A stretch of DNA of 37,917 bases from positions 759,445 through 797,361 of the forward strand of contig NW_005201192.1 in assembly GCF_000372725.1 (NCBI RefSeq), given 5' to 3'. Positions 6,703-32,376 of the stretch are shown one piece after another; positions within the stretch are counted from its first letter, which is position 1; each line of letters starts with the position of its first letter. This DNA is from Emiliania huxleyi CCMP1516. Taxonomy: Eukaryota. Below the pieces are notes generated by a model. That model saw nothing but the letters and a program-made list of their open reading frames with translations, had not been told where the DNA came from and did no database searches. A program made the position numbers and the translations under genes.

Positions 6703-8017
6703 ATGGTGCTGAGCGGCAGCATCACCTTCCTCTACTCCTCGCGACTCGCCGACGCACGACGCTTCTACAGCCACGATCTTGGCCTCCCGCTCCGCCGCGA
6801 CGGTGGCGTGCTCTTCTTTGCTCTCCCGGGTGGCGCCGCGTCGCTCGGGATCGTGCCAGAGGGGACGAGCGCGGCGGCGAGTCCACCCGTGAGCGCGGTG
6901 ACCGCCGGACGCGACACGGCCATGGTGTGCCTGCTGACGGACGACGTCGACGGCACCTACGCAAAGGCGCTGGCGGGCGGGCGGTGCTCGGCGGAGCAGC
7001 CGCCGCGAGCGACGGAGCGGTTCGGCATCTACAACGCTCTGCTGCGCGACCCGGACGGGTACCTCGTCGAGCTGCAGCGCTTTACCGACGCGGCGGAGCA
7101 GCGAGAGTTTTGTGGCGGGTCGGCAGCGTCGGAGGCGGCGTCGGATCAGGCGGCGGCGGCGGCGGCGGAGGCGGCGGCGGCGGCGGCGGAGGCGGCGGCG
7201 GCGGCGGTGGAGGAGTCGGCGGTGGCGACGGCAGAGGTGGCGAAGGCTCCGCTCGTCGTCGCCGTCGGGAGCAAGAACCCTGTCAAAGTCAACGCGGTGC
7301 GCGCCGGCTTTGCCGCCGCCTTCCCGCTGACAGCGCTCGAGGTGGTTGCGTACGACATCCCGAGCGGCGTGTCCGACCAGCCGTGGGGCGAGGCGGAGAC
7401 GCGGCAGGGGGCTCTCAACCGGGCGGAGAACTGCCTCGGCGCGCACTGCCTCGGCCACGGCGGTGCGGCTCCTCCTCTCGCGCCCACCACCGCCCTCTCC
7501 CTCTCCCTCCCTCTCCCTCCTTCTCCCCCTCTCCCTATCTCTCTCTCTGTAGCAGCCGCACCGCGACTCCTCCTCCCCGGCGCCACCACCTCCCCGGCGC
7601 CACGCAGGTGCGATGCCCGACTTCGCCGTCGGAGTCGAGGGCGGCGTGGCGGAGTGCAGCCTATCATCCCTCCACCCAGGCACGCCCGGCCTCGACTCCT
7701 GCACCGAGTGCTTCGCCTTCCTCGCCGTGATGCGCTCGCCGGCGAGCGAGGCGGGCGTCGCGTGGGGCGTGGCGCGCACCGGGTCCTTCGCGCTGCCTCC
7801 GCGCCTCGCCGCCCTCGTCAAGTCCGGCGTCGAGCTCGGCGACGCCGACGACAGAGTCTTTGGCGACAGCGGGAGCAAGCGCAAGGGCGGCACGGTCGGC
7901 AAGCTCACGCGCGGCCTGGTGGACCGTACCGCGTACTATGAGCATGCGATGCACCTCGCGCTGGCGCCGTTTGTGCACGGAGAGGAGTTCCCAGGGCTGT
8001 ACGACGCGGGGGAGTGA
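6703..8017 (+). CDS. Fusion of a glyoxalase/VOC domain and a YjjX-like non-canonical purine NTP (ITP/XTP) phosphatase; one intron 7463-7607
   Basis: N-terminal ARRFYSHDLGL...LRDPDGYLVELQRF (VOC fold), then an Ala-rich linker, then VAVGSKNPVKVNAV, PSGVSDQPWGEAETRQGALNRA, DFAVGVEGGV, GVELGDADDRVFG and GTVGKLTRGLVDRTAYYEHA (YjjX motifs). The GT-AG intron restores the frame. Confidence 0.85.
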
Positions 8018-8188
8018 GCGTGTGGTGAGTACGCACGCCCCGTGTTGCATGTCTGACTGTCACTGTGCGGTTTCGGGGCCCGGGGTTGTGCGTTTCGAAG
8101 TGAGTGCGCACACCCAATTCGACAGAAAACTTCTTTTTTTATTTCATCAAATACGGCGACCATCGACCCACGCTGTCAGTGACGAAGG

Positions 8189-9747
8189 ATGGCCAGCTCT
8201 GTGATCGCCGTGTCTCCCTGGAGCACAAATATTACTGTCGTTGATGGCATGCCCGCGGCGTCCAGCTCTCGGTACGCCATTGAGATGCTGGCATGCTGGC
8301 TAAGCTTTGTCACCTTCAACCTCGGCTGGGTCGCCATGACATCGCCGAAGGACGACCGCTGGCGGCGGATGCGCTTCATCTGTATGATGTGGCCGCAGCA
8401 GTTTCTCGCCATCGTGAGCCGGTTTCTCGTCATGAGGTTGGTCAAGCTCGCCTCATGGGAGGGGCTCGACCATCCGGCCCTCTACTGGCCTCTCCTCTTG
8501 CCGATCGGCGTCTTTGAGACCTGGTCCATCCAGGCGATGGCGGACGTGTACGAGTCGCGGCCCGTCAAGCCCGTGTGTCTGAAGCAGGTGCTGAACCAGC
8601 TCAAGATCACCACTGCAGAGTCCATCGGGGTAACGGTGGGCTACAAGATCTGGCCTTGGGTTCGCATCGACGACCCGACCGTCGAGTCGCTTCTCCACGC
8701 CACCTGGCGCACCTTTGTCTTTGACATCGGGCTCGACATCGGCTTCTACACCTTCCACCGCGTGTGCCACGTCAACCGCGCGCTCTGCTGCTGTCGCACC
8801 TCGCGGCACCGCCACGTCCGTGACTTGTCCGTGGCCACGTCCCGCAGGCACGCTCTACCGCTGGCTGCACGCGCAGCACCACACCGACACGGCCAAAGAG
8901 CACGGTCACCTAGTCGCGCACGAGACCTACGAGGTCAGCCTCGTCGAGGCGATCTCCATCCTGGGCGCGCACAGGGACCTGGCCGAGATCTCGCCGAGAT
9001 TGCCCGAGATTTCCCGAGGCAAAGCGCGCGCCTCCGTCCTCGGCTCCTGCCTCCATCAAACCTCCCCGAGCCATCACACAACGACACGACCCAAAGTGCC
9101 CTCAGGCTCGTACCTCATCGGGTTCGAGCTCATCGGCCTGCTCTACAACTACACCCTCTTCGACATCGCCCTCCTCGTCTCGTGGGCACCGAATCGCCAC
9201 CGCAGTGGCAAATCGCGCGACTCGTCCACGACGCACCCACGCGGCACGACCCCATAGGCGCTCAGCGTCGCGCCGCTCGACCAGGTCGGGTGTGTGTGAA
9301 GGGGGAGTCTTCACCTCTTGAGCCGTGAGTAGGCCCACCTCGTCGAGCTGCTCGGCCACACGCAAATGTCGTGGACCGTGAACGGCCCGCCCGCCCCTGC
9401 CCCATCCCTGCCCCACCGCCGCCACCGGCCGCCAGAGACGGACAGTCCTACCTCGCCGCGCCCGCATGCAGGCCACCCTCTGCGCATCATCCCAGAGGTG
9501 CTCAACCTCGACCTCAAGGCGAGAGACCCGAGACGACCCGAGAGGACCCGAGAGGACCCGAGCGCACTCCCTCCCGCAATGCTCCCAGGTGCCCGACCAC
9601 ACCATGCACCACACCAAGCCCCTCTCCAACTTCTCCAAGCGCCTCACGCTGCTTGATCACCTCTTCGGCACCTACGAGCCGCCCGGCGACGAGTACGGCA
9701 CCATCACGCTCAAGGACCTGGCCAAGGCAAAGGCCAAGGCGGCGTGA
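8189..9747 (+). CDS. Fatty-acid hydroxylase / sterol desaturase superfamily membrane protein, multi-exon
   Basis: His boxes FYTFHRVCH, LYRWLHAQHH, ELLGH and DHTMHH...NFSKRLTLLDHLFGT, plus several TM segments. Introns include 8778-8847. Confidence 0.85.
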
Positions 9748-10016: not shown

Positions 10017-13000
10017 ATGATCACGTCTACTCCAGGTTACGATGAAGCCCGCTTCCAGTCCGAGGCGGAACTTGGTCTCGTTGCCGATGTCGTCCTCGCC
10101 CATCGCGCAGAGGGCGCCACCAAGGAGTCAGAGGTCACTGGCAAGATGCCAAAGCCGACCGGGGGAGAGCCGGGGTTGCGCCAGTCGGGTGGCGAGAGCA
10201 GCCTGCTGAGGAAGGAGGCCGAGAGGGAGTCTCAGCGTGAGTCGGAGCTGGAGGCGAAGCGTCGCGAGCTCAAGACGCTGCTCGAGTCGGTCGGGCTGCG
10301 CGTGCGGGTGCAGCACTCACGAGACGGCGGCGAGGTGATGCTCAAGGTCAGCACTGCAAGCGCGCGGTGCATTCTCCCACGCACCGCGGACGCCTGTCTC
10401 GTGGCGGGCCCTAGGTGACGGCCACGCTGGAGCGCCTCGAGGATGAGGCCGAGCGCAGCGGCATGAAGATGGGCATCGCCGGCTCGCAACGCCAATACGA
10501 GCCCTTCACGCGCTCGCGGGCAGGGGAGTTTGTGCTCAAGGAGGGTCGGACCTTCTCGGCGCTGGAGCGGCAGCGGCTCATCCTCTCTATACTGGAGGCA
10601 GAGCACAACGGACTGCTCTGGAGGCGATACACCCCTCATTTTGATGTCATCGCCCATGTTAGGCGGAGCGCGAGGTTGGCGGCGCTGGGCTTGACCTCGA
10701 CGAGCTCGTTGTCAGCGGCGTACTGATCTGCTACTTTGGTCTGCACTCCATTGCAGAGAGGAACTCGCTCAACGCAGAGTGGCTAACCGTGCGCTCGTGG
10801 CCGTTTGCGAACCGGCGGCTCTTTCCGGACCTCGGGCTGATGCAGCAGCCGATAGGGGAGGTCCGGGAGTACTATGGCGAGAGCATCGCCATGTACTTTG
10901 CCTGGATGGAGCACTACACCAACTCGCTGACGGTGCGTGCGTCCCTTCTCCTCCTGCGCCCCGCGCATCAGCCACGCACCGCTGGAGCCAAGCGGCCGCT
11001 GCTCCGTAGACCAGACCCTCTGCTCCTACCACCCGAGGCACGTCCCAACGCGCGTCCCAACGGCGTGCCTGCAGGTGCTTGCGCTCATCGCCGCTGTCGT
11101 CGAGCTGTCGCCGGTTGGTGCGCTCGGCACGCCGCTGTACGCATGCGCCTCTGCGCTGTGGTGCACGTTGATGGCGGAGTCGTGGAAGCGCCGCCAGGCC
11201 ACGCTGGCGCACGAGTGGGGAATGGTTGGCTACGAGAACGAGGAGCGGCCCCGGCCCGAGTTCATCGCAGCCTTCCACAAGGGGCTGTGGGCAGCAGACC
11301 ACGAGGCGGATCCACCCGAGGTGGATGATGGCGATGGGCTTTCGGAGAGCAACGCGAGCATGCGGCTCGACGCGGAGAGCAAGCCAATGGTGAAGAAGCG
11401 GCAGTCGTCCCTCACGAAGATCGTGCGGGGCAACAAGGGCGGGATGGAGCGGCGGAGCGGCTTTTACGACCGGCGCGGCTTTGTGCCGCATGACGACGCT
11501 CCGGAGACGCTAGTGATGCCCGAGGGGTCCCGGCTGCGCGTGTACCTCATGAGCATCCCGACGCTGGTGCTGTGCACCGTGCTGATGCTGGTGGTCACAC
11601 TCGGCATCCTCACCTTCCGCATGCTCATGTCGCTGTCGCGGCAGCTGGAGGAGCATCCGTACTTCAACCCGTCCACCGCGACGACGGTGGGCGCGCTGCT
11701 GAACACACTGTGGATCACAGTCATGAATATGGTGTACGCCAAGCTAGCCGCATGGCTCAACGATCTCGAGAACCACCGCACCGACACGGAGCACGAGGAC
11801 GCGCTCATCGTCAAGACCTTCCTCTTCCAGTTTGCAAACTCGTACATCGTGCTCTTTTACATCGCTTTCATCCAGGGCCTCAACTTCTCGCTCTACGGTG
11901 CCTTTGGCTACACCAACGCGGCGGGCCAGGCGTACCACGACATGTGCGGCCTCTCGGGCGGTGAGTCTGGGGCCGACTCGTGGGCCTTTGCCGGCTGCAA
12001 GGGCCCCGGCGGCAGCGCAGGCGTACCGCCCCCGACGGCGGGCGACCCGCTCGACGCATCCAACCCTCAGGGGCACTGCGAGCGGGCGATCTTTGTCGAG
12101 GCGCGCCACGTCTCTGGCCGCTGCCACCTCGCAGCCTCCGCCCCCTTCTCACTCTCCGCAGCGACGCCCCCTCGCCGCAGGACCCTGACGGCTGCGTCGG
12201 GCTGCTCCGCACGCAGCTGTTCTACTACACCGTCTTCAAGCCCCTCTACGAGGTTGCGCTGCAGGCTCTCATCCCGTGGCTGCAGCACCGCTACAACCTC
12301 TACCAGCTCCGCCAGCGCGTCGGCCGGTCCTCCATCGCGGCCACGGGGATGGCCAGCGCGGAGGCAGCAGACAGCGGCGGGAAGATGGCGGGCTGCGTCG
12401 ACTGGATGACGGGGCTCGTGGGGGCGCCGCCGGGGACGCAGAGTAGTACGGTGAGCATCGACCTGAGCTCCGAGGAGCAGGTTGCGCTTCGCTTCGTCGA
12501 GCTCGGTCAGGAGATCGAGGAGCAGATGGCCATGCCGGCGTTCGACGGCACCTTTTCCGAGTACAACACCAAGGTGATACAGTACGGCTTTGTCTGCATG
12601 TTTGCCTCCGCCTTCCCACCCGCCGCCATCGCCGCGGCGATCGCCAACTTTGTCGAGCTACGCTTCGACGCGCACAAGATTGGCTACTCGCATCGCCGGC
12701 CGGTCTACCGCGGCGCGGAGGACATCGGCTCCTGGCAGCACGTGATGGACGTGCTCTCGTGGCTGGCGCTCGTCATCAATGTGCCACCCGATCCCTCTGC
12801 CGCGTCGCGCGGCACACGAGGCCCAGTGACCACGCGCTGCCGTTCTCCGTCGCCCGCAGGCTCTGATCGTGGCGTACACGTCCAACAGCGTGCGCGACAT
12901 GCTCGTAATACCGTGGCTCGCCGACAGAAGCGACTGCTCCAGCGACGCGGCCCCCTCGTGGGATGAGGACTGCGTCTCCAACTGGCGAGAGTGCTACCTC

Positions 13001-15751: not shown

Positions 15752-17317
15752 TCTAAATAAAATAAATCAAACGGACATCCCAATGCTATAGGGCTGGGTC
15801 GAGGACAGACACGTCCCCACCTTTGCAGGATTTTGCAAAAGCGAGGGGGGAAGGGCGCATCGCCGCGCGGAGAGGGCTGGGCACAGGGCACAGGGGATCT
15901 CTCTCGCATAGCCATAGGATACACACTCGGCGGCACGAGGGCAGGGCTGAGCGTCCTATTTGTGCTCCCCCCCGGACCCCTCGCTCTCGGGCACTATCCA
16001 TCTGACCACTAACGGACTTGGAGCACTTGGAGTGCAGTCATCAACCTCACATCCAGGGCCGGGGAGCTGAGAAGCGCACCCAGCGAGCCGGATGATCGGC
16101 ATCGGGCTACGGGCTAGAGAGCCCTGACCCCTAGCTAGGGGGGGTGCGCATTCGCAGGGCAAGGGCCTTAAAGTAAACACGGGTCTCCGAGGGTTGGTTC
16201 TGCGCTTTGGGTGTCCCCTAGCGGCGGAACGCCCCCTCTACTCGGAGCTAGTAAACACCAGACTCTAGACTAACATGTTTTCTTTCTTTTTCTACTCGGA
16301 GCCAGTGAGACGAGAATACGCACATCTTACAAGAATACATACTGCCCCCACGGAGTACCTGCACTACTCGACGATAATACAAGAAGAATACGCAGGACGC
16401 AGCTTGGAAGTTGCAGACGCCTATAAAGAAAAAACAGCCAGCTAAATTTCGGCGGCTAAAAAGCAAAGGACGGGCGCTTTTGATCGGCAAAGCAAAGTTG
16501 GAGTAACGGCGACCGCGTCGCCACAATGCCAGTCGCCTGTCGAGCAGCCTTGGCGGCGCGCATGCGCCGCAGGGTTGACCGACAGCCGCGCGCCTCGAGC
16601 CTCTCGCTCCAAGCGCCGGCAGCCACGCAGCGGCAAGACACGCAGTGGCCGCACTGCGGCGGTTGGACCCCGGCCCGTGCGTCGACAAAAACGCGCTATC
16701 CGCGCGGCGGCGGGCCCTCGCGCCAGTCGCGCTCCCCCTCCCCTGACTCGCCGCCCGCGAAGCGCGCCTCCTCCGCCGACTCCTCCGGCTACGACTCCGA
16801 GACGCCCGACGAGGTCCAGACGGAGGCGGTGCGCAGGGTGTGCGGCGCGCTCGGCATAAGGGAGCGGTTCGACGCGGCGCTGGCGGCGGGCGAGCTGCCC
16901 GAGCTGCTCGAGGGATTGCCGTGTGGAATGGTTGAGGCCTCCATCCGTCTCATGCGGGGGTACATGCGCACGGGCAAGTGGCCCGAGCCCACCCTGCCCA
17001 GCCCTGAACCGGAGCGCGGCCGCTCGCGTAGTAGCTCACACTGCCCCTCAGAGTGGTCGGAGGATTAGTGCCCCAAGAGCGAGGACCCCGAGGGGAGCAC
17101 CAATAGGAGGCCCAGCCTTGCCCTCGTGCCGCCGAGTGTGTATCCTATGCGAGAGAGATCCCCTGTCGCCTGTGCCCTGTGCCCAGCCCTCTCCACGCCG
17201 CGATGCGCCCCCCCGCCCCCTCCCCCTCGCCCTTGCAAAATCCTGCAAAGGTGGGGACGTGTCTGTCCTCGACCCAGCCCTAGCTTGGGATGACGGATGT
17301 CCGTTTTATTTATTAGA
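15752..17317. mobile_element. Segment bounded by ~260-bp imperfect inverted repeats (15752-16010 and 17052-17317); probable non-autonomous element or two head-to-head repeat copies
   Basis: GGGCTGGGTCGAGGACAGACACGTCCCCACCTTTGCAGGATTTTGCAA and the flanking sequence recur as a reverse complement. Both arms end in (TTTA)-like tails. Confidence 0.7.
16016..16263 (-). repeat. Dispersed ~250-bp repeat, copy 1 (copy 2 at 28897-29153, opposite orientation)
   Basis: Aligns by eye; 16016-16068 is the exact reverse complement of 29101-29153. Confidence 0.9.
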
Positions 17318-17552: not shown

Positions 17553-19845
17553 ATGCCTCTGCCCGACCTAATCGAGGTTGTGCCGCTCAGCCCCGAGGCG
17601 CTGGCGCGGCTCAAGGCGGCGCCCGCCCAGATTGCCATCCCAGGGTCCAAGTCCATCACCAACCGCGCAATCGTGCTCGCTGCGCTCGGCGACGGCGCTG
17701 TAACGCTCCAGGGCGCGCTGTGGTCCGAGGACACTGAGGCGATGACTGAGTGCATGCGGACGCTCGGGATCAACGTCGAGGTGGCGGCCGACCCACTAAA
17801 TGCGGCCAACCGGCGGATCACTGTCCACGGCTGCGGCGGCGTGGTGCCTCCGGGCGGCACCGAGGAGGCGCCGACCGAGCTCTTTGTGGCGAACGCCGGC
17901 ACTGCGGCCCGCTTCCTGACGGCGATGGTGTGCCTGGGGAGCGGCGTGTACCGCCTCTCCGGCGTCCCGCGCATGCACGAGCGGCCGCAGGCGCGCTAGC
18001 CACTCAGTGGACATCTTCTCAGAGCCCTCCTCGAATCTTCTCGGAAGCTTCCCCACAGGCGGAGCTCGTCCGAGCGCTGCGAGCGCTCGGGTACCGCGTC
18101 GACACGCCCAATGAGCGGCTGCCGGCGCTCGTGCACGGCGGAGGGCCGCGGCCGGGTCCGGTGCTGGTGAGCGTGTCCGACTCGTCGCAGTTTGCGTCCG
18201 CCCTGCTGCTCTCGAGCGCGCGCGGCGGGTGGGTCGTCTCGGCGCGGGTGCGGCACGCCGTGAGCTGCGTCTCTTCACGCCATTGGCCGTGAACAGGTGG
18301 GTCGTCTCGACTCCGGAGGGGTCCAACCCGGACGAGCTCCCGCGCGCGATCCTCTGAGAGCGGCCCCTCTGCCTCACGGCGGAGGCGCACACGGGCAGCC
18401 GTTGGAGACTTTGTAGGCGCGGCGAGAGAGGGCGCGCCTGCGGGGGAGAGCGAGCCTCCTCGGAGCCCGTTCGGAGCCCTCCCGGTAGGTACGTCGAGAT
18501 GACGCGCCGGCTGGTGGAGACGTTCCCACACGGCGGCGGCGACTTCCAGGTCGAGCCGGACGCGTCCAGCGCCAGCTACTTTCACGCTGCAAACGCGCTC
18601 TTCCCAGACCACCTGCCGGCGCGGCGGCCTGCCCCTCCCCTCGGAGCCCACCCCGTCTAGGCGCAAGCCCTCGAGGGCGACACTTGCGGTAGGTGCGCGT
18701 GCTCGCCTGCCAGCCCCCAAAGAGGGAGGGAGGAACCGGCTGGCAGATCGACGCAGAGTTCCCACGTTTGGCGCCGACGGCGGCGGCCGAAGGCGACAAC
18801 GGTGGCGGCGACGGCGACGGCGGCGCGGCGGCCGATCCGGCCAAGCGAGCGAAGCTGGCGCCGCGTGTCATTTCGCGGCACGCGCCGACGGATTTGGGCG
18901 ACTCGGTCACGATTGCCATGCTGGCATGTCCGCGACACGTCCGCGACACGTCCGCGACACGTCCGCGGCACCGGCCACAGGTGATGACGGCGATCGCCAT
19001 CGCGCCGCTCGCCTCGCAGCCGCACGCCTTCGCTTCGCTCGGCGTGCTGCGCAAGCAAGAGTGCGAGCGCGTGGCGGCACTGAGGGACGAGTTGCGCAAG
19101 TGCAAGGTGATCGCCGCCCGCGAGGGGGGCGTGGGAAGGAGGAGGGGGGGGAGGGGGGAGGAGGAGGCCCGCACCTCGAGCAAGCGCCCTCCCGCCCCGC
19201 CCCTCCCACCTCTCTGCGGCCGCCCTCGCACACCCCTCAGGCGAGCGTCGAGGAGGAGGTTGCGACGGACACTCTCTCCATCGCCCCGACCGCCGCCGCC
19301 TCCCTCGGCGACGCGACAGTGGCGACGTGCGTCGACCCGGATGGCGGCACGCGACGATGATTGCGGTCGAGCGTGACGCGGTCTTGGCATAGGTACCACG
19401 ACCACCGGATGGCGATGTGCTTCGCCACTCTCGCGCTCAAGGCGCCGCCTTCATGGACGCTTCCTAGACACTTCCTAGACACTTCCTAGACACTTTCAAG
19501 ACGCTTCATAGACGCTTCATAGACGCTTCATAGACGCTTCATAGACGCTTCATAGACGCTTCATAGACGCTTCCGGACGCTCACGAGGCGACACCGCCGC
19601 CGCCGCCGCCGCACCCGCGCCGCACTGCGCGAGCCGCGCCCCCCTGACGCGCGGTCGGGCTGCGGCAGGTGCGAGGCATCAAGATTGAGGGGCCGCGCTG
19701 CGTGAGGAAGACGGTGCCCTCCTTCTTCCAGATCCTTGCCGCGTCGCCGCCGAGCGGGCTGGGCGTGGAGGTCTGGGAGTGCAACGCCGCCACGGGCGAG
19801 CGGCTGCGGCGGCTTGAGGCTCCCGAGGACCTCTTCGCCGCGTGA
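17553..19845 (+). CDS. aroA: 3-phosphoshikimate 1-carboxyvinyltransferase (EPSP synthase), monofunctional, about 8 introns
   Basis: IPGSKSITNRA, NAGTAARFL, RMHERP, SDSSQFASALL, PYVEMT, EPDASSASYF, LRKQECER, YHDHRMAMCF, CVRKTVPSFF. Introns include 17991-18058, 18229-18296, 18342-18488, 19107-19240 and 19327-19392. Confidence 0.93.
19456..19572. repeat. Intronic 11-bp tandem array, GACACTTCCTA grading into GACGCTTCATA, about 10 copies
   Basis: Directly visible in the last aroA intron. A further 11-mer (GTCCGCGACAC) lies at 18928-18966. Confidence 0.95.
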
Positions 19846-20400: not shown

Positions 20401-20553
20401 GTCTGGTTGTGTCTGTATATGCCAGCGTTGCAGGGTTCTGCGCTGGTATCTGGCCCCACAGCGCCGACGACTACGCCGCCACCACACAGGGATTTTAAGG
20501 AGAGGTGTGTGGTGCGCTATCCGTCGCCCACCCTAGGGAGTCTGCCTCTTCCT

Positions 20554-20631
20554 ATCTCTCTTCGCAGTCTCTCGCCGATTCTCGCTGCAACCTTCATGCC
20601 ACCTCGCGGTCGTCCCACCCTCGTCGTTCTC
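20554..20631 (+). repeat. ~78-bp dispersed direct repeat, second copy at 23970-24048
   Basis: ATCTCTCTTCGCAGTCTCTCGCCGATTCTCGCTGCA(A/C)CCTTCATGCCACCTCGCGGTCGTCCCACCCTCGTCGTTCTCT occurs at both sites. Confidence 0.9.
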
Positions 20632-21536
20632 TGGGGACGAGTAGGATCTTGTAAGCCCACGTAAAATTCTTTTCTTTAGCAGCTTGTTCGCGGGCTTTGC
20701 GCGCACCAAGGACGCAGAGCTCGCGCCACCCTCCGGACGCCCATATGCGCCAACTCGACGAGGAGGCTGGCGAAGAGAGCTGCGTTATTATCAAGCAAGA
20801 CTGCAGCAGCGGCGGATGACGACCGGGCGGTTGTGGTCGCGGCGGGAGTGCTCCGCCTCTGGTACGCGTGTGCATGGCGATTCCAGGCCCGCTCCGCCTG
20901 CCGACCACGTTGCTGCTCTGCTTCGGCAGCGCTTACGCCATCGTCCACGTCTGCTCCTTTGCGCTGAGTGCGGCGCTCTAGGGTCAGTCGGCAGCCTTGC
21001 AGCGCCAAATGATGTGACCACGCCCAATCGCTCTCCTGCGGCGCGTGGTCCTGAGCGCACGCGCTGTGCCCGGCGCACTTTTCTCGCTACGCGGTAGAGG
21101 TTTTCGGTTTTCGGTCCGTCGCTCTGAAAGAGCCTCGCCCACCTTGACAAGGCGCCGAGGCCGTTCATGGATCTTGGGGCCTTTTTTTTGAATTTTGTCA
21201 CTGACAGAAGGACCTTTTTGGACTGTCCAAGATAGTGCATTTCGGTTCCCCCCAAAATCCAGAAACAGCATACACATATAGCCGCGCGCCGCATATCTAG
21301 AGTGCGCCAGCACGACGCGGCGAGGGGAAACGGCGCAGCTCCCTCCGCGCTCTCTCTCTGGTGCATGTCTGTGGGACTCTCTCCGAATATGGCTTCCTCT
21401 GAACACGCCGCGCCCGACGGGGTCGGCGCGCCCCGGCAGGTCCGTCCCAGAAAATCGCTGCCTCCCTCCCCTGAGTCCCGCCTTTGGCCGCGGCTCCAAC
21501 TTCGGGCTTGGGAAGGAAAGGGGGGGGGGGGGGGCC

Positions 21537-23140: not shown

Positions 23141-23970
23141 ATGCTGCCACTCTGCACTGCGTCATTGGCCTCAGAAACATGCGACCTCAGCGCAAAGGTG
23201 TTCCGCGACCCACACATCAATTTCGCCTTCGGAGGTTCCGCCGACCTCCGCGGACACCACAACGCGCTCTACAACTTCCTGTCTGCGCCCGGCTTCTCCG
23301 TCAATGTAAAGACCGAAGCGGCTGTCTTCAAGATGCACGGCGGAGCCCTGACCATCAATGGCACTTTTCTCACTGAGGCGCACATCACCACGCAGCTCTC
23401 GCCGCAGAAGCTCGCCACCGCGTCATACTGGGCGTCCGAGCTGGATCCAAACAACTTTGGCTGGAGCGTGGTCAACGGCACCTGCGTCGGCCGCCCGTTC
23501 CGGTTCGGCCTCCACGGCCACAAGGCTTGTTTTGACTTCAAAATGTCGATGGACCACTCGAGCGCCACATTTGAGCTCGGAAATTGGACCGTCACGGTGC
23601 ACGGCAGCCGCTCGTGCAAGGGCTGTCTGGTCGCGGGCCCCGAGCACCGTCTAGACATTGGCTTCACAGCGAGAGGCGACGCGCCGGCCCGCGACAGGCC
23701 GCACGGCATCGTTGGGCAGTCCTATGCCACGCCGGGGCTCGAGCGGCACGGCAAGAAGGACCTCTACCCTTTTTCAGGCTCCTACACCACCAGCGCCCAA
23801 GCCGAGGGCGCCATTGACGGCACGGCGTCAGATTATCAGGTAGCGAGCCCTTACGCGACCGACTTTGCCTTTTCGCGCTTCAACGCCGCCAGGGGCGCCC
23901 CCGCGTCTGCGGAAGCCACCGGCGGGGTCGACGCCTCGTCCATCGATCGCATCGCAGACCCCGCCGCCCA
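23141..23970 (+). CDS. DPH-motif VWD/root-cap-like domain protein, intronless copy; 3' end probably disrupted by a repeat
   Basis: RDPHINFAFGGSADLRG..YNFLS..SVNVK, GTFLTEAH, RPHGIVGQSY, EGAIDG..DYQV..FSRF resembles VWD/root-cap-type extracellular domains. After ~23970 the ORF runs into repeat-derived sequence. Boundaries are approximate. Confidence 0.65.
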
Positions 23971-24339
23971 TCTCTCTTCGCAGTCTCTCGCCGATTCTCG
24001 CTGCACCCTTCATGCCACCTCGCGGTCGTCCCACCCTCGTCGTTCTCTCCCTTGTCACTTCCTCCTCTGTCGCGTCGTTCTCTTCTGCCTCGTCCTGCGA
24101 CGCCGCCGCCTGCCGGTCCCTTGTTCTCGCGGCTTCTTTCGCCTTTCGGCGCAACTCCGTCCTCCTCGCGGCGTATCCTGGCCCCTCGAGTCTATCGAGC
24201 TCCCCTCGCGCAAGGACCACATTTCTGACTCCCACTCCGATCATTTTCTCGCGAGCAGGATCTTGGAAACCGAGCCGATTTCTTTTGTCTGTACAAGCCA
24301 AACCCAGTGCGCCAGTCCCGCCAGCGTTCTCGCCAGCGC

Positions 24340-25185
24340 ATGCTCCTCGACAACACTGCTCTGGTCACCGGCGCGAATCGCGGCATCGGCCTGGCGACTG
24401 CAGGCCGGCTCGCGGAGTTGGGTGCGAGCGTCGTCCTCGCCTGCCGTGATGAGTCCGCGTGCCGCGAGGCGGCTGCTGCCCTCTCGGTCAGAGGCCTGGC
24501 CGCCGAGCCGTACGCCGCGAGCTTCGACGCCGAGTGCCCGCGCAGCACGTCGGCGCTCGCCGCCGCGTGTGCATCCCTCCGCGTCGATCTCCTGGTCAAC
24601 AACGCCGCCGTCTGCGAGCCAGGCTGGGGCCGCGATGTCGCCCTCCGCTCCTTTCGCACCAACGTGCTGGCGCCTGCCACCCTCACCCGCGCGGTGCTTC
24701 CCGGCATGTTGCGGCGACGGCGCGGCGCCGTCCTCCACGTCTCGTCTGGCGACGGCGAGCTCGTCTTCCTCTCGAGCGACCTCGCGCCGCGGCTGGCCGG
24801 CGCGGCCTCCGAGCGCGAGCTGCTGCGGCTCCTCGCGCGGCTAAGTCGCGGCCGCGACGGCTTCCGCTTCCCCGACCGGCCGCCCGCCCACGGGCCGACC
24901 CCCGCCTACTCTGTCTCCAAGGCGGCGCTCAATAGGCACACGCGGCTCGTCGGCGACGCGCTGCCGCGCGACGGCGGCGTGTGGGTCGGCGCCGCCTGCC
25001 CGGGTGACGTGCGGACGCGCATGTGCTCCTGCGAGCGTCACGAGGGTGTGGCCTCGCCCGAGAGCGCCGCGGACGACCTCGCCCGGCTCGCCGCTGGCGC
25101 GCTCGGCGGGGGAGGCGGCGAGGCGGCGGCGAGGCGGCTCGAGTCGGGACGGTTCTGGAGGGCGGGGAGGACGATACCATTTTAG
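24340..25185 (+). CDS. Short-chain dehydrogenase/reductase, carbonyl reductase-like
   Basis: ALVTGANRGIG, DLLVNNAA, VSS, YSVSK catalytic motif, CPGDVRTRM. Confidence 0.92.
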   Translation: MLLDNTALVTGANRGIGLATAGRLAELGASVVLACRDESACREAAAALSVRGLAAEPYAASFDAECPRSTSALAAACASLRVDLLVNNAAVCEPGWGRDVALRSFRTNVLAPATLTRAVLPGMLRRRRGAVLHVSSGDGELVFLSSDLAPRLAGAASERELLRLLARLSRGRDGFRFPDRPPAHGPTPAYSVSKAALNRHTRLVGDALPRDGGVWVGAACPGDVRTRMCSCERHEGVASPESAADDLARLAAGALGGGGGEAAARRLESGRFWRAGRTIPF

Positions 25186-25186
25186 C

Positions 25187-25250
25187 TGCCCTCTCTCGCC
25201 CTCTCTCGCCCTCTCTCGCCCTCTCTCGCCCTCTCTCGCGCCCTCTCTCC
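25187..25250. repeat. 10-bp tandem repeat (GCCCTCTCTC) immediately after the SDR stop codon
   Basis: Directly visible. Confidence 0.9.
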
Positions 25251-26476
25251 CCCACCTTCCTTTGTAGCGTGCGCCATTGACATATCGCTACAGCGACTCA
25301 ACACAAAATACACGGATTAAGGCGCTCACACAGAGCGGAGCGAGCGGGTGAGCGGCGAGGGCCGAGGCGTGGCTAGGGGGCCCACAGCAAAATCCGCCAC
25401 TGTGGGATTTCGCGCCCAAAGCTTGACTCTGAAAAGCTCGCATATCCCTGCGGTGAGCGCTGTGGTCGCCGCAGACTGGCTCCGACTTGACGGCGGCATG
25501 GAGACGTGATGCCTCCATGCCGCCGTCGAGTCAAAATCGACATGCGAGTCGATCTTTGGCCCGCCAGAGGGATATGCGGCGTTTCGGGCGACAAGCAGCG
25601 CTGCGACCGCGAAGTGGCGGTGGACATGCTCCCACGGTGCCGACGCAGCGCCGGAGTGGCCGGTGCTGCTCGCCGCGACCACGACGGCTACTCCGATGCT
25701 CCGGGCCGGCCCGTTCTACCCGACGGTGGCACTCTTCCACGTCTCGCTCACGCTGAGAAAAATTCTGAAACGGCGTGCAGCAGAGTCGCCGACGAGTCGG
25801 TCCGCGTGCCTCCTCGTGTCCCGTACCGTTCTCACACATCCATAAACTCACTTTGGCCTCACTAAAGCGAAGGCCGAATCCTTAATCCTCAGATTTTAGA
25901 TTAGGACGCTGTGGGCCCTCTAGCGTGGCCGGACCGCGGACGAGAGAGCCGGCGACACAAATTCTCACAAAACGTATAGTGAAGTAGTTTATACGGCTTG
26001 CTGCAAATCGTGCAACGTGGGCGGCGAGGGCCACTGAGGGGGTGTGTCATGAAGTCAACACAATGTGGCCACTCGTTTTCGTTTGAGACGCTTGAGACGG
26101 ACCAGAGAGACCGCAGAGACGGGGAGCTCCGTGTCGGCGTTGCCCTCCCCCTCCCGGCGCCCTCGCTCCCTGCGAAAAGGCAGAAGCTCCTAGTATGGGA
26201 GGTCATCTGCCTACCGCGAGAGCGACCCAACTCGTCGACATCGTCCGATGGTTGTTTGTGCCTCAAAGTCAGCCTTCGGAGGCTATCGTGGGATCGAGCC
26301 GGCGGTGCCGTGACATGTGGGTTTCTCGATTTCTGTTTTCGACTCTCTATTCGCGCCGTACGCAGTTTTCGAGGGCAGAGGACGCGTTTGGCGGGTGTAC
26401 AACGCGGTCAACGACGTCTCCCTCGAGTGAGATGATGAAGAGGGGGGACGACACTGCTCCAGCAGCGTGCACCTAC

Positions 26477-26601
26477 CTCGATCCTGTACCGTGTTTGTTA
26501 GGACCCCCCCCAATGAACACACCAGTGAGTGAGGGAGGGCGAGACGATCGAGGGGTTCCGTACCATGCGGAATCGACCCTATCCAGTGCTCAAGTGCTCA
26601 A
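26477..26601 (+). repeat. Dispersed repeat, second copy at 32573-32732
   Basis: Shared CCTCGATCCTGTACCGTGT..CCCAATGAACAC..CGATCGAGGGGT..CGTACCATGCGGAATCGACCCTATCCAGT..GTGCTCAA. Confidence 0.88.
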
Positions 26602-27113
26602 CGCGGTCACGCATGAAGAGAGAGAGAGAAGTTGCTTTTCCAAAATCTCTCTCTCGCTCGCATGAACCAAAAACTGTCTGCTTACAGTCTGTTGCGGGCA
26701 TTAAGAAAGCGTCCCATTAAGAAACCCTACCAAGCAATTTCCGCGAAAATCTAAGAAACCACGGCGCGCCGCAGGCGCGGCCCCAAGAAAGGGCCCACAC
26801 ACGAGTGTGAACAGGAGCCCCGCTCAAATTTTCTCCTCGCCTGCGGCGCGCGCACTTGTCATTTTGCCCAAGTCTGCGGTGTTCTGGGCGGTGTGGATGG
26901 AGGTGTGTGCGTCTTCCTGTCATCCCAAGACTGCTGACTGGCGCATCGGTCCAGCGCTTCCTTCTTGTCATTTTACCTAAAAATTCCTAGATCCCGGCTG
27001 ACTGTAACCCCCAAATTAGCGAAAATTCGTGCCGTCGGGGCACTGCCACTGGACGCGGTCCGTCGCGGATCCCACAGCCGCGGATCACTCGAACGCGGAA
27101 TCGGCCAGGGATC

Positions 27114-27923
27114 ATGAGCGGCTCGGGGAATGCCGCCTGCGCTTCCGCAATTGTCATCAAGGATCCTCATCTAAACTTTGCCTTCGGCGGCAAGGCCGAC
27201 TTTCGCGGCCGACACAACGCGTTGTACAACTTCCTCTCAACCCCCAGTCTGTCGGTCAACGTAAAGATAGAGGAGGCTATCTTCACTCTCGGTCCCGTCT
27301 CTTCAGCCTCCTCTTCCTTCAGTCCTCGTCCCTGTGAGCTCGCTTGGGCGCGCTTGTAGGTTCTGGCGACGGGCTCTTGACCGTTAATGGCACCTACCTC
27401 ACCGAGGCACACCTTGTGGCGAAGCTCCAAGCCGGCTACACCGCCCAGGCGTCGTTCTGGGGGTCTGAGCTCAAACATGACAACTGGGGGTGGGACATCG
27501 TCAATGGCACATGCGGGGGGCGCCGGTTTAAATTCGGCAAGCATGGGACTCAAAAGTGCCTCGAGCTCTCAATGTCAATGGGGCACTCCGCCGCAACTTT
27601 CGTGCTGCCCGACTGGACCGTCAAAGTCAGCGCCGACCACGTGTACAATCGGATTTCGGGCCCCGAGCATCGGCCCGCCGTCCAGATGCGAATACATAGA
27701 AGCCCTTCTCTCGAGCACAGGCACGACCCCTGTACTCGTTAGCTGCCTCACCCCCCTCATCCCCTCCACCGTGCAGGATCGACGTGCGCTGCACCGACCC
27801 TCGCTGCCGCCACCATCGCACTAGCGGACCACAACACAACTCAGCAAGGCTCTGATGCTGCAGGTGGGCTTCACAGCCAATGGCGACGCGATTGCGCGCT
27901 CCATCCCCCACGGCCTCATCGGT
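27114..27923 (+). pseudogene. Paralogue of the 23141 DPH-motif gene with three introns (27292-27359, 27673-27776, 27784-27863), truncated after IPHGLIG
   Basis: KDPHLNFAFGGKADFRGRHNALYNFLS, GTYLTEAH, GPEHR|ID|VGFTANGD..PHGLIG align colinearly with the first copy. The downstream QSY..SRF part is not found, and retroelement-like sequence follows instead. Confidence 0.7.
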
Positions 27924-27924
27924 C

Positions 27925-28343
27925 TGCGTACCAGCGGGGCGACGGCGTCTTCGCGGCAAGTGGACGGGGTCGGCGCGTATCACGGCGTTCGACGGCACGT
28001 GCGTCACCGCGGTACACTTCGGCATGCTGCGCCCGCTGACGCGCGGCACGCGCCTCGCCACCGACTACGCCGAGGCGACGAAGAGGAGGGCTAAAGCCGC
28101 GGCGTGCGAGACCAACAACTTCGACTTCATGACGTGGGCGTCGAGCACGCGCGGCGGCATCGGGCACGAGGCGGCGGCGTGGTTCACCACCAACTCTTCG
28201 CCACTAAGATTGCTCGGGCATCCTCCGACAGCGAGCGATGGCGGATCAGCGGTGAGCGCAAGCGCTTCCTGCAAGAGCACTCGGCCATCGTCACGAGACG
28301 CAACTTTGCCATCTTCGGCTACAACGCGCAGGCGCCCCAGTAA
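27925..28343 (+). mobile_element. Degenerate 3' fragment of an RLE-type (CRE/R2-like) non-LTR retrotransposon ORF
   Basis: AFDGTCV...AEATKRRAKAAACETNNFDFMTWASSTRGGIGHEAAAWF, then a frameshift to FLQEHSAIVTRRNFAIF*. This matches the remembered restriction-like endonuclease C-terminal pattern (D-x-T, E-x2-K, F-P-x3-E-T-x-G-G-x-G-x-E-A, Q-R-x-S-x4-R-x-N). Confidence 0.65.
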
Positions 28344-28896: not shown

Positions 28897-29153
28897 GTCT
28901 GGTGTTTATTAGCTCCGAGTAGAGGGGGCGCTCCGCAGCTAGGGGAAACCCGGAGCGCGGACTAACCCTCGGAGAACCGTGTTTACTTTACGGCCCTTTC
29001 CCTGCGAACGAGCACCGGGTCCCCCAGGGCTAGGGCTCTCTAGCCCGCAACCCGATGCCCATGCCGATGCCGATCATCTGGCCCGCTGGGTGCGCTTCTT
29101 AGCTCCCCGGCCCTGGATGTGAGGTTGATGACTGCACTCCAAGTGCTCCAAGT
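28897..29153 (+). repeat. Dispersed ~250-bp repeat, copy 2, with predicted stem-loops
   Basis: Reverse complement of 16016-16263. Confidence 0.9.
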
Positions 29154-29893: not shown

Positions 29894-31300
29894 ATGCCGC
29901 TCCGAGTCGGCTTTATCGGCCTCGGCGCGATGGGACTGCCGATGGCACTCAACGTGCTCGACGAGGGCCACGTTGTAAAGGCGTTTGACGTAGCGTCCTC
30001 AGCGGTCGACGCCGCTGTCGCCAAGGGATGCACCGCCGCGGCCTCTCCTCGCGATGCAGCCACCGGACGACGTGCTGGTGACGATGGTGCCAAACGACCG
30101 GGTGCTGAAGCAGGTCGTCTGCGATGAGTCGACCGGTGTGCTGAGCGCCGCTCAGGCCAACAGCCTCGTGCACGTCTCGTGTTCAACGGTGCACCCGGAC
30201 ACCTCCCGGGAGCTTGCGGCGCTGCACGAAGCAAACGGGCTGAGGTTTGTCGGCGCGCCCATCTTTGCACGAGCCGATGGCGTCGCACGGCGGCTCGCGT
30301 CCTTCTGTGTCGGCGGCAAGGACGGCGCGGTGCAGAGCGCGCTCCCGGTGCTTGAGGCCAACTGCGGCGCGGGCGGCGTCTTCCGCTTCGGGGAGGACGC
30401 GGGCGCGGGGAATGTCGTCAAGCTGGCCGGCAACTTCATGATCGCTTCGGCGATCGAGTCATGTGCTGAGGCGCTCTCCCTGGCGGAAAAGTCGGGCCTG
30501 GAGAGGGAGGCGAGGGGTAGGCGAGAGAAGGGCGAGGGGTGGGCCAGGTGTGGGCGAGGTGCGGGCGTGTGGGCGAGTAGTCGATGGCAGGTTGGGCCGA
30601 GAGAGCGGGAGAGAGCGGGAGAGAGCGGGAGAGAGCGGGAGAGAGCGGTAGAGAGAGAGGGAGAGGGAGAGGGAGCGGGAGCGGGAGCGGGAGCGGGAGC
30701 GGGAGCGGGAGCGAGGGCGAGGGAGCGAGTGTAGCAGGCGCTGCCGGCGTCGCTCAGCCACTCCTCCGCGCACCGAGCTTCGCAGGCCGTCATGTCGATG
30801 CTACACTCCACTATCTTCGACTGCCTCATCTACCGCGGCTACGGCGACCGCGTCGCGCAGCGCTGCCACCACCCCGGCACGCCCTGCCCGGCCCCAGCTC
30901 GAGCCGCGGACGGTGTCTCCTCACCCCTCTCGCTGCGAGCAGGCGAGCCTCTGGTCGGGCCGGGCTTCCAGCTCGATCTCGGACTCAAGGACGTCACACT
31001 CGCCCTCGACGTGGCGGCAAAGGTGCACCACCGCCACCACAGACGGCCTAGGCCGCGGCTTGCGAGGACGCCCGCCCGCCCCACGCACGACCGCAGGTGC
31101 AGGCGCCGATGCCCGTCGCTTCCCTGCTGCGCGACCGCTTCCTCGGCGCGACCGCGCGGGGCCGCGGCCACATGGACTGGTCGGCCATCGGGCTCAGTGT
31201 GTCTGAGGACGCGGGCGTTGACGTGTCGGAGAGCCTCGCCCTGCCGCCAAAGAAGCGCAAGCTCGCGGCCGGCGGCGCGGAGACGAGGGAGGTAGCCTAA
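29894..31300 (+). CDS. Beta-hydroxyacid dehydrogenase (3-hydroxyisobutyrate/6PGD NAD-binding family), three introns, apparent frameshift near 30067
   Basis: VGFIGLGAMGLPMA, DVLVTMVP, SCSTVHP, FVGAPIF, GAGNVVKLAGN (catalytic Lys), GFQLDLGLKDV, MPVASLLRDRF, DWSAI. Confidence 0.88.
30599..30727. repeat. Intronic 10-bp (GAGAGAGCGG) and 6-bp (GGGAGC) tandem repeats
   Basis: Directly visible. Confidence 0.9.
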
Positions 31301-31581: not shown

Positions 31582-32376
31582 ATGGGATCTATCTCCTCCA
31601 AAATGCGCTCGAGCGCGGACACCGTCCGCGGCGAGGCAGAGGGCGCCATCAAGCGGAGCAAGCTGGCAGACTTGAGAGTGCGCAAGGCGGAGCGTGACGG
31701 CGCCATTGCGATGCGCATGGCGGTGCTCCGCGACCAGCTCCACTTCTCGCTCGCCTTTTACGTCTCCCTAGTCGTCGCGACGGGTCTCCGGTGCATCCAT
31801 CGCCGCCGGCTGGAGGGGTTGCCGCTGAGCTCGCTGCCCCTGTTTGCGGGCCCATTTATCTTTGCGTACAACGTCGATGCGGCATATGGGAACAAGGTTG
31901 AACGGCTCAACATGGAGGCGCAGACCATCCTGCGCACAGAGGCGCATTGGTTCAACCAGCCGATGATTTTGCCTACCTTCCTTGAGCCCGAGTACCGCAA
32001 GATGCGAGAGGAGAATAATCGGCGCCTACACTCAGCGGGGATGCCGCCCGAGAGCGACTGGGCCACGTTCCGATCAGCGATCAGCGACGATGAGGTGTGG
32101 CAGTTCGCAGCGCCTCTGAGCAAGCTGATGCACGAAAGCCTCGCCGATGACGTAAACGTGGACCCCGAGCGAGGCCTGCTAGGGTTGATGCGCAATCGAA
32201 TCGTCTCGATCGTGAGGGCAGCTGATGGGCATGCGACCTTTACAGCACGCACCGCGCTCGACCCGCCCGACGTGACGTTGCGCACCCACGCAAGCGTCTA
32301 TGCACCTACGCAATGGGCCGACTCGCTACCTCCCCCGCCTGATCTCGTCCCAGACCATCCGCGCCGCAAGGTGTAG
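31582..32376 (+). CDS. Plasminogen receptor KT (PLGRKT/DUF2368)-like membrane protein with C-terminal extension
   Basis: MG start, AMRMAVLRDQL, two hydrophobic segments, and AYNVDAAYGNKVERLNMEAQTIL, which resembles the PLGRKT YxxDxxYG..ER...EA..IL motif. Confidence 0.7.
   Translation: MGSISSKMRSSADTVRGEAEGAIKRSKLADLRVRKAERDGAIAMRMAVLRDQLHFSLAFYVSLVVATGLRCIHRRRLEGLPLSSLPLFAGPFIFAYNVDAAYGNKVERLNMEAQTILRTEAHWFNQPMILPTFLEPEYRKMREENNRRLHSAGMPPESDWATFRSAISDDEVWQFAAPLSKLMHESLADDVNVDPERGLLGLMRNRIVSIVRAADGHATFTARTALDPPDVTLRTHASVYAPTQWADSLPPPPDLVPDHPRRKV

What the first reader, a model, noticed from the sequence alone, without database searches (positions are those of the whole stretch)
23141..27923. 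Paralogue pair: intronless copy vs copy with three introns and a 7-nt micro-exon
Copy 1 reads FKMHGGALTING and GPEHRLDIGFTA without interruption. Copy 2 has introns at 27292-27359, 27673-27776 (GC donor) and 27784-27863, leaving the micro-exon GATCGAC (27777-27783) that supplies R|I-D. The last two introns begin with mimics of their downstream exons. This is a natural test of intron gain against loss or retroposition.
Basis: partly seen in the sequence, partly recalled or inferred. Interest (0 to 1): 0.72.

Follow-up and report, generated by a model that had tools for sequence, protein, structure and literature searches.

The report
Late-gained introns leave 7-base exon
In the alga Emiliania huxleyi, one of two neighbouring, distantly related and likely broken copies of a large gene family carries three introns that its relatives lack, two of them predicted to enclose a 7-base exon; this is likely ordinary late intron gain rather than loss from the other copy.

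Summary
The coordinates hold. The three introns give the best spliced model: best of 1052 around the micro-exon, best of 11 at intron 1. The 7-nt exon supplies a near-invariant Asp, and 31 of 20000 shuffles gave such an exon by chance. No RNA covered copy 2, so splicing is predicted only.

The pair is not a clean test. The genes belong to a large VWD-like family of Emiliania huxleyi and related algae, and copy 1 has far closer relatives than copy 2. Outside copy 2's own alleles, 285 and 289 relatives run straight through the intron sites, with four unclear breaks. The three introns were therefore most likely gained on copy 2's branch.

- A fourth intron site at 27922 is broken in 46 relatives.
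- Both copies are cut at the 3' end by repeats, so both are likely pseudogenes.
- GC donors are the majority class in this species.

The mimicry is real for intron 3 (9 of 11) and borderline for intron 2. It also recurs in neighbouring genes, which hints at intron birth with target duplication across this genome.

The parts
23141..23969 (+). Copy 1: intronless VWD-like domain gene, cut after the domain; linker and C-type lectin of its relatives are absent
   Evidence: 94-95% nt identity to L001/L003 ends at 23965; their continuation encodes a linker and lectin-like domain; Lectin_C in the 97% relative P0181; fold
23967..24220 (.). High-copy repeat joined to the 3' end of copy 1 (right end approximate)
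   Evidence: 98% match to 20551-20632; summed contig depth up to 11,601 and loose ends at 23970; the same junction text in P0007
24340..25185 (+). Unrelated single-exon short-chain dehydrogenase gene between the copies
   Evidence: adh_short E 3.8e-27; covered by long contig pieces in 4 of 4 runs
27114..27291 (+). Copy 2 exon 1 (an upstream exon is not excluded)
27292..27359 (+). Copy 2 intron 1, GT-AG, phase 1; the spliced product has two extra residues in a predicted hairpin turn
   Evidence: best of 11 models; turn at model residues 47-50
27360..27672 (+). Copy 2 exon 2
   Evidence: 14-member cluster of near-identical metagenomic ORFs (representative 99% identical) with the same intron read-through text
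27673..27776 (+). Copy 2 intron 2, GC-AG, phase 2; holds a rival in-frame GT donor at 27680
27777..27783 (+). Predicted 7-nt micro-exon; completes Arg and encodes Ile and the near-invariant Asp (D153 of alignment A1)
27784..27863 (+). Copy 2 intron 3, GT-AG, phase 0; first 11 bases match the downstream exon at 9
27864..27921 (+). Copy 2 last recognisable exon
27922..27929 (+). Likely donor of a fourth intron at a site broken in many relatives; no acceptor or later exon found
   Evidence: 46 relatives break at this codon, 227 run through (after my re-sorting of 10 rows); no later profile hit
27930..28317 (+). Repeat remnant with a frameshifted ORF; resembles a non-LTR retroelement C-terminus (recalled, untested)
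   Evidence: a diverged copy (31 other letters, 4 gaps) in run X7; no Pfam family

Best explanation
Copy 2 likely gained its three introns late and on its own branch, two of them seven bases apart so that a 7-base exon is predicted between them, while the uninterrupted state of copy 1 at these three sites is likely the family's old state. SHOWN: the exon model fits the family best, relatives run through these sites, and both copies are cut short by repeats. INFERRED: at least intron 3 was born by an insertion that duplicated the exon start and took its donor from the duplicate, as neighbouring introns suggest. INFERRED: a fourth intron at 27922 is older and has been repeatedly lost or swapped among paralogues, so copy 1's line probably lost that one. 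INFERRED: both copies are now pseudogenes of a family of predicted extracellular VWD-like domain proteins.
For: Of 356 family proteins held, 15 are copy-2 alleles. Among the rest 285 span the intron 1 site with 2 nearby breaks, and 289 span the intron 2/3 site with 2 nearby breaks. All 9 metagenome loci are continuous at the intron 2/3 site, and the 7 that cover it are continuous at intron 1. L008 and L009 carry introns at other positions, so their assemblies are unspliced DNA. None of the 46 proteins that read into the fourth intron is among the breaks at sites 2/3. Copy 2 is a long branch outside copy 1's clade. Mimicry in 29 hand-set neighbouring introns: 112 of 261 matches at positions 3-11 against 85.1 +/- 6.8 in shuffled pairs, p 5e-5. 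The part missing from copy 2 holds 12 of the 16 invariant columns.
Against: No spliced read or contig shows any copy 2 junction, so use of the exon is unproven. Many continuous proteins may come from RNA assemblies; their origin could not be checked. P0098 breaks one residue after the Arg and could share intron 2; P0032, P0135 and P0211 break near the sites, unclear. The AU test did not reject copy 1 + copy 2 as a clade (p 0.075). The three introns resemble neither each other nor other held sequence and show no terminal inverted repeats, so no mobile donor is identified. The donor-independent mimicry test was significant at >=10/11 (3 of 29 vs 1 of 106, p 0.03) and by rank (p 0.004), but not at >=8 or >=9 (p 0.11, 0.28). 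Members look mosaic, which weakens tree mapping.
Confidence: 0.62

Rival explanations
1. One intron, not two: the GT donor at 27680 joins to the 27863 acceptor, giving a product of the same length with Pro-Ala in place of Ile-Asp, and the micro-exon is a relic or is skipped.
For: This is the best single-intron model, stop-free and of the same length, 135.1 bits. It uses a canonical GT. Intron retention and non-canonical junctions are common in this species (PMC4028052, passages).
Against: It scores 9.5 bits below the micro-exon model and loses the near-invariant Asp. A flanked Ile/Leu-Asp block arises in 31 of 20000 shuffles, so the micro-exon was very likely once used.
Confidence: 0.12
2. The introns are ancestral and copy 1, with its many intronless relatives, derives from spliced RNA (retrocopy or cDNA conversion).
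For: The fourth site is patchy: 28 present, 73 absent, 4 unscored among 105 rows, 11 changes, which fits repeated loss. Copy 1, L001 and L002 share only 127 and 58 nt of 5' flank.
Against: For introns 1-3 no relative outside copy 2's alleles clearly has them. Members that keep the fourth intron or other introns lack them. The shared flank with L001 starts just behind a TATA-like stretch (sequence read directly). I saw no poly(A) tract after the L001/L003 stop in the translated read-out (not tested formally).
Confidence: 0.13
3. Copy 2 is an intact expressed gene whose 3' exons lie beyond a long, repeat-filled fourth intron or are missing through mis-assembly.
For: No stop or frameshift in the exons seen. 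Near-identical alleles are widespread (14 sequences).
Against: No profile hit to the 3' part on either strand of the window, and the next gene starts about 2 kb on. Alleles vary at 6 of 104 exon residues and 1 of 27 intron-read residues, no sign of extra constraint, low power.
Confidence: 0.13

Closest known systems
Plant microexons with intronless paralogues (APC11, VPS55; PMC8831610, passages seen)
   Same: A very short exon between two introns in one copy, continuous coding sequence in other copies.
   Different: There the microexons are RNA-verified and old, and intronless copies are read as losses. Here the exon is unverified, confined to one branch, and best read as a gain.
Introners that take the 5' splice site from a target-site duplication (Symbiodinium, Polarella, Aureococcus; 10.1101/2022.06.06.494994 and 10.1101/2020.10.14.339549, passages seen)
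   Same: Intron start matches the downstream exon start; GC donors frequent; G always follows the acceptor (29 of 29 neighbours).
   Different: No shared intron family and no inverted ends in copy 2. Match lengths vary, up to 13 of 13 and 15 of 16, rather than a fixed 4 or 8. The five E. huxleyi introner families listed in the supplement of PMC9860276 have TSD status '?' (4) or 'N' (1).
Intron gain by tandem genomic duplication or double-strand-break repair, and intron transfer between paralogues (review PMC3443670, passages seen)
   Same: Short direct repeats at intron borders; higher gain in paralogues; spread or loss by recombination, which fits the fourth site.
   Different: No excess similarity between intron 3' ends and upstream exon ends (72 vs 69.6 +/- 6.2, before three coordinates were corrected), as a full tandem duplication would give. 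The review warns that conserved introns can be flanked by repeats as often as new ones.
von Willebrand factor type D (VWD) domain of mucins, FCGBP, VWF and RGM
   Same: Beta-rich fold; top Foldseek hits MUC2, FCGBP D10, RGMB, VWF at E about 1e-4 to 1e-3; an Asp-Pro-His start recalling the GDPH cleavage motif (recalled).
   Different: 9-11% identity and TM about 0.4-0.5. No Pfam VWD hit and no PDB sequence hit.

Membership tests
Microexon (<=15 nt internal exon) | Flanked by AG and GT/GC with introns of normal size, restoring conserved frame and residues | tested here: met
   best of 1052 models; chance 31 of 20000
Microexon (<=15 nt internal exon) | Included in transcripts | tested here: inconclusive
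   none of 4 laid runs covers copy 2's exons
Introner-derived introns | Family of sequence-similar introns at unrelated sites | tested here: inconclusive
   no similarity among the three, or to the window and 9 loci; whole genome not held
Introner-derived introns | Target-site duplication supplying a splice site | tested here: inconclusive
   intron 3 9/11, intron 2 7/11, intron 1 5/11; no fixed length
Introner-derived introns | Terminal inverted repeats (present in part of known families only) | tested here: not met
   best 10-nt match 6, 6 and 7 of 10
Processed retrocopy (copy 1) | Lacks introns present in the parental or ancestral gene | tested here: inconclusive
   not met for introns 1-3; possible for the fourth site
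Processed retrocopy (copy 1) | Poly(A) tail and flanking target duplication | not tested
   copy 1's own 3' end is replaced by a repeat
VWD domain (Pfam PF00094, accession recalled) | Profile match above cut-off | tested here: not met
   no VWD family hit for copy 1 or 10 relatives
VWD domain (Pfam PF00094, accession recalled) | VWD fold | tested here: met
   model pLDDT 94.2; all 11 matches at E<=0.001 are mucin, FCGBP, RGMB or VWF chains; no second aligner result was obtained
VWD domain (Pfam PF00094, accession recalled) | Autocatalytic cleavage at Asp-Pro | not testable with these tools
   motif seen only

The most novel reading that the evidence does not exclude
A sizeable share of Emiliania huxleyi introns were born by insertions that duplicated the exon start over a variable length (roughly 5-16 nt) and took their donor from the duplicate. 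This would explain the species' GC-donor majority and the constant G after the acceptor. Copy 2 records two such births 7 nt apart, and its multi-copy, polymorphic family lets the process be followed in wild populations.
Probability: 0.3. Interest if true: 0.65.

Novelty: new member of a known kind. Interest (0 to 1): 0.3.

Why it matters
As a single locus it matters little: late intron gain, a micro-exon and probable pseudogenes are all known kinds. Two side results could matter. First, the excess match between intron starts and downstream exon starts in this species is cheap to test genome-wide and could give a mechanistic reason for its GC-AG majority, which PMC4028052 ascribes to high GC content. 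Second, the genes belong to a large family with a VWD-like fold and no Pfam model (1153 clusters at E<=0.001), with varied partner domains and one intron site that comes and goes among close paralogues.

Tried and rejected
RNA: no RNA holder listed on record. Four guessed-RNA runs, 4 of the 14 listed, gave no cover of copy 2's exons at 90% likeness, and copy 1 was covered only by roughly 90-94% alike pieces, the long ones in run X2. This is no evidence on expression. No second laying was obtained, so neighbouring introns rest on hand annotation.

Genome: no whole genome is held, and genomic DNA for protein hits was not available.

Collections: viral contigs gave no relative with either query, genome contigs none, PDB sequences none.

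Unanswered: the ESM Atlas and VIA-align jobs.

Earlier findings: three look-ups returned nothing.

Rejected readings: introns 2 and 3 as duplicates of each other (p 0.76); full tandem duplication (no 3'-side excess); the GC donor as unusual (16 of 29 neighbours are GC); a recent tandem pair.

Corrections: one search held three mis-set intron coordinates, corrected. Two EPSP synthase introns of the 29 are not checked by an open frame, because one junction upstream stayed unresolved.

Literature: searches for a description of the mimicry in Emiliania turned up none in their listings. Most listed papers were seen as listings only and subscription papers are not held, so this does not show it is unpublished.
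Full report
Organism and family. A window ORF (31603-32373) is in the protein collection letter for letter, and a cluster-mate is named as an Emiliania huxleyi protein, so the window is taken as E. huxleyi. The two genes encode the same domain of about 230 residues. It has 85 relatives of similar length and 41 longer ones, and 1153 clusters at 50% identity. No Pfam family passes and no PDB sequence matches. A confident model (pLDDT 94.2) matches VWD domains of MUC2, FCGBP, RGMB and VWF. Relatives carry varied partners: C-type lectin, TSP3, receptor L, glycosyltransferase 2 and a weak RCC1-like match. An extracellular role is inferred, not shown.

Observation. The three introns and the 7-nt exon are at the stated places and splice to a stop-free frame. 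I enumerated all stop-free one- and two-intron models with GT, GC or GA donors around 27640-27900. The micro-exon carries the Asp that is nearly invariant in alignment A1 (D153), inside a predicted strand. Such a block arose in 31 of 20000 shuffles. Intron 1 was best of 11 models and leaves two extra residues in a predicted hairpin turn. Fourteen near-identical metagenomic ORFs share exon 2 and the same intron read-through, so the structure is not an assembly artefact. No laid run covered copy 2's exons; splicing stays a prediction.

Copy 2's similarity ends at 27921, just before a GT. Of the other relatives that reach this codon, 46 break there with 15 different following texts and 227 run through (217 matched my pattern and I re-sorted 10 more that begin with Gln as continuous). 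Three read through an in-frame insert of about 20 residues there. So 27922 is very likely a fourth donor. Eight bases later a repeat begins (27930-28317; diverged copy in run X7), and no later exon is found in the window. The missing part holds 12 of 16 invariant columns. Copy 1 is also cut: identity to L001 and L003 (94-95%) ends at 23965, where they continue into a linker and lectin-like domain, while the window enters a high-copy repeat. P0007 shows the same junction. Copy 1 differs from L001 by 22 synonymous and 9 non-synonymous codons, so its domain was constrained until recently. Copy 2 alleles vary at 6 of 104 exon and 1 of 27 intron-read residues, which is uninformative.

Gain or loss. 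Of 380 proteins held, 356 align to the domain and 15 are copy-2 alleles. Among the others, 285 span the intron 1 site (2 nearby breaks: P0135, P0211) and 289 span the intron 2/3 site (2 nearby breaks: P0032, P0098; the last could share intron 2). Some continuous proteins may come from RNA assemblies. However, all 9 metagenome loci are continuous at sites 2/3 and the 7 covering site 1 are continuous there, and L008 and L009 carry introns at other positions. The tree used 105 rows: the two copies plus distinct proteins, of the 338 aligned, that cover the core at 47% identity or more; shorter and more distant ones were left out. It puts copy 1 in a 62-row clade (100/98) and copy 2 outside as a long branch (0.69). 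Forcing the two together costs 36.6 log-likelihood units but is not rejected (p-AU 0.075). The fourth site needs 11 changes (28 present, 73 absent, 4 unscored), and 'present' occurs only in copy 2 and the 62-row clade. Parsimony therefore favours three gains on copy 2's branch, and repeated loss or transfer of the fourth intron, likely including copy 1's line. The tree is unrooted and members look mosaic (for example P0009, P0172), so this is a lean, not proof.

GC donor and mimicry. PMC4028052 (passages) reports GC at 56-65% of curated or read-based E. huxleyi donors, so the GC donor is ordinary; 16 of my 29 hand-set neighbouring introns have it. Those 29 introns lie in seven genes. Six genes (23 introns) splice to stop-free frames; in EPSP synthase four keep the frame and two are unchecked. 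Their starts match their own downstream exons beyond the donor dinucleotide more than shuffled pairs do: 112 of 261 against 85.1 +/- 6.8, p 5e-5; 6 of 29 reach 8 of 11, against 14 of 812 mismatched pairs. Extreme cases are 15 of 16 (ABC1 kinase-like gene) and 13 of 13 (EPSP synthase). I chose donors by eye and had seen some of these matches, so bias is possible. A test that ignores my donor choice gave 3 of 29 against 1 of 106 at 10 or more (p 0.03) and rank p 0.004, but no significance at 8 or 9. Copy 2's intron 3 (9/11) belongs to this tail; intron 2 (7/11) is borderline; intron 1 (5/11) is background. Intron 3' ends do not resemble upstream exon ends. The pattern is the one described for introners that recruit the donor from a target-site duplication (10.1101/2022.06.06.494994, passages; 10.1101/2020.10.14.339549, passages). 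E. huxleyi is listed with 653 introner elements in five families with unclear or absent TSDs (PMC9860276, supplement rows; file cut when stored). PMC12130899 does not name the species in its main text. PMC11347168 (passages) notes many non-canonical introns in it. Copy 2's introns show no family or inverted ends, so the insertion agent is unknown; repair-type insertion is as possible (PMC3443670, passages). bioRxiv supplements could not be seen and may bear on this.

Verdict. A real, well-supported but RNA-unverified micro-exon in a probably dead paralogue; late intron gain is the best reading (0.62). This is a new member of known kinds (PMC8831610, passages, for microexons with intronless paralogues). 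The wider mimicry in this genome is the lead worth following. Interest 0.3.

Noticed in passing
window 4872-4947 (-), 18229-18296 (+), 8778-8847 (+), 10933-11074 (+): Introns whose start copies the downstream exon start at 15/16, 13/13, 13/16 and 8/9 bases, in four unrelated genes.
   Followed up: partly
window 4593-4619 (-) and 9258-9284 (+): Two predicted 27-nt exons, in the ABC1 kinase-like and sterol desaturase-like genes (names recalled from motifs); short exons are not rare here.
   Followed up: partly
P0005, P0163, P0167 versus P0172, P0188: Near-identical family members with and without an in-frame insert of about 20 residues at the fourth intron site; possible presence/absence polymorphism or RNA origin.
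   Followed up: partly
L001 1255-1750, L004 975-1810, L006 870-1970; P0178, P0181: The same N-terminal domain and Arg-rich linker are followed by quite different C-terminal domains, even among 95-99% identical members (C-type lectin versus RCC1-like); looks like a cassette-swapping surface-protein family.
   Followed up: no
window 30040-30080: The dehydrogenase-like gene starting at 29895 appears to change frame here without an obvious intron; a sequencing error or real frameshift.
   Followed up: no
window 6703-8018: Predicted fusion of a glyoxalase-like N-terminal part to an inosine/xanthosine triphosphatase-like C-terminal part (names recalled from motifs; frame open).
   Followed up: no
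P0201: A planctomycete-type cytochrome domain protein (PF07583, PF07635) joined to this algal domain and its intron read-through; probably a chimeric contig.
   Followed up: no
window 28897-29153 and 16016-16263: Two inverted copies (84%) of a high-copy non-coding repeat.
   Followed up: no
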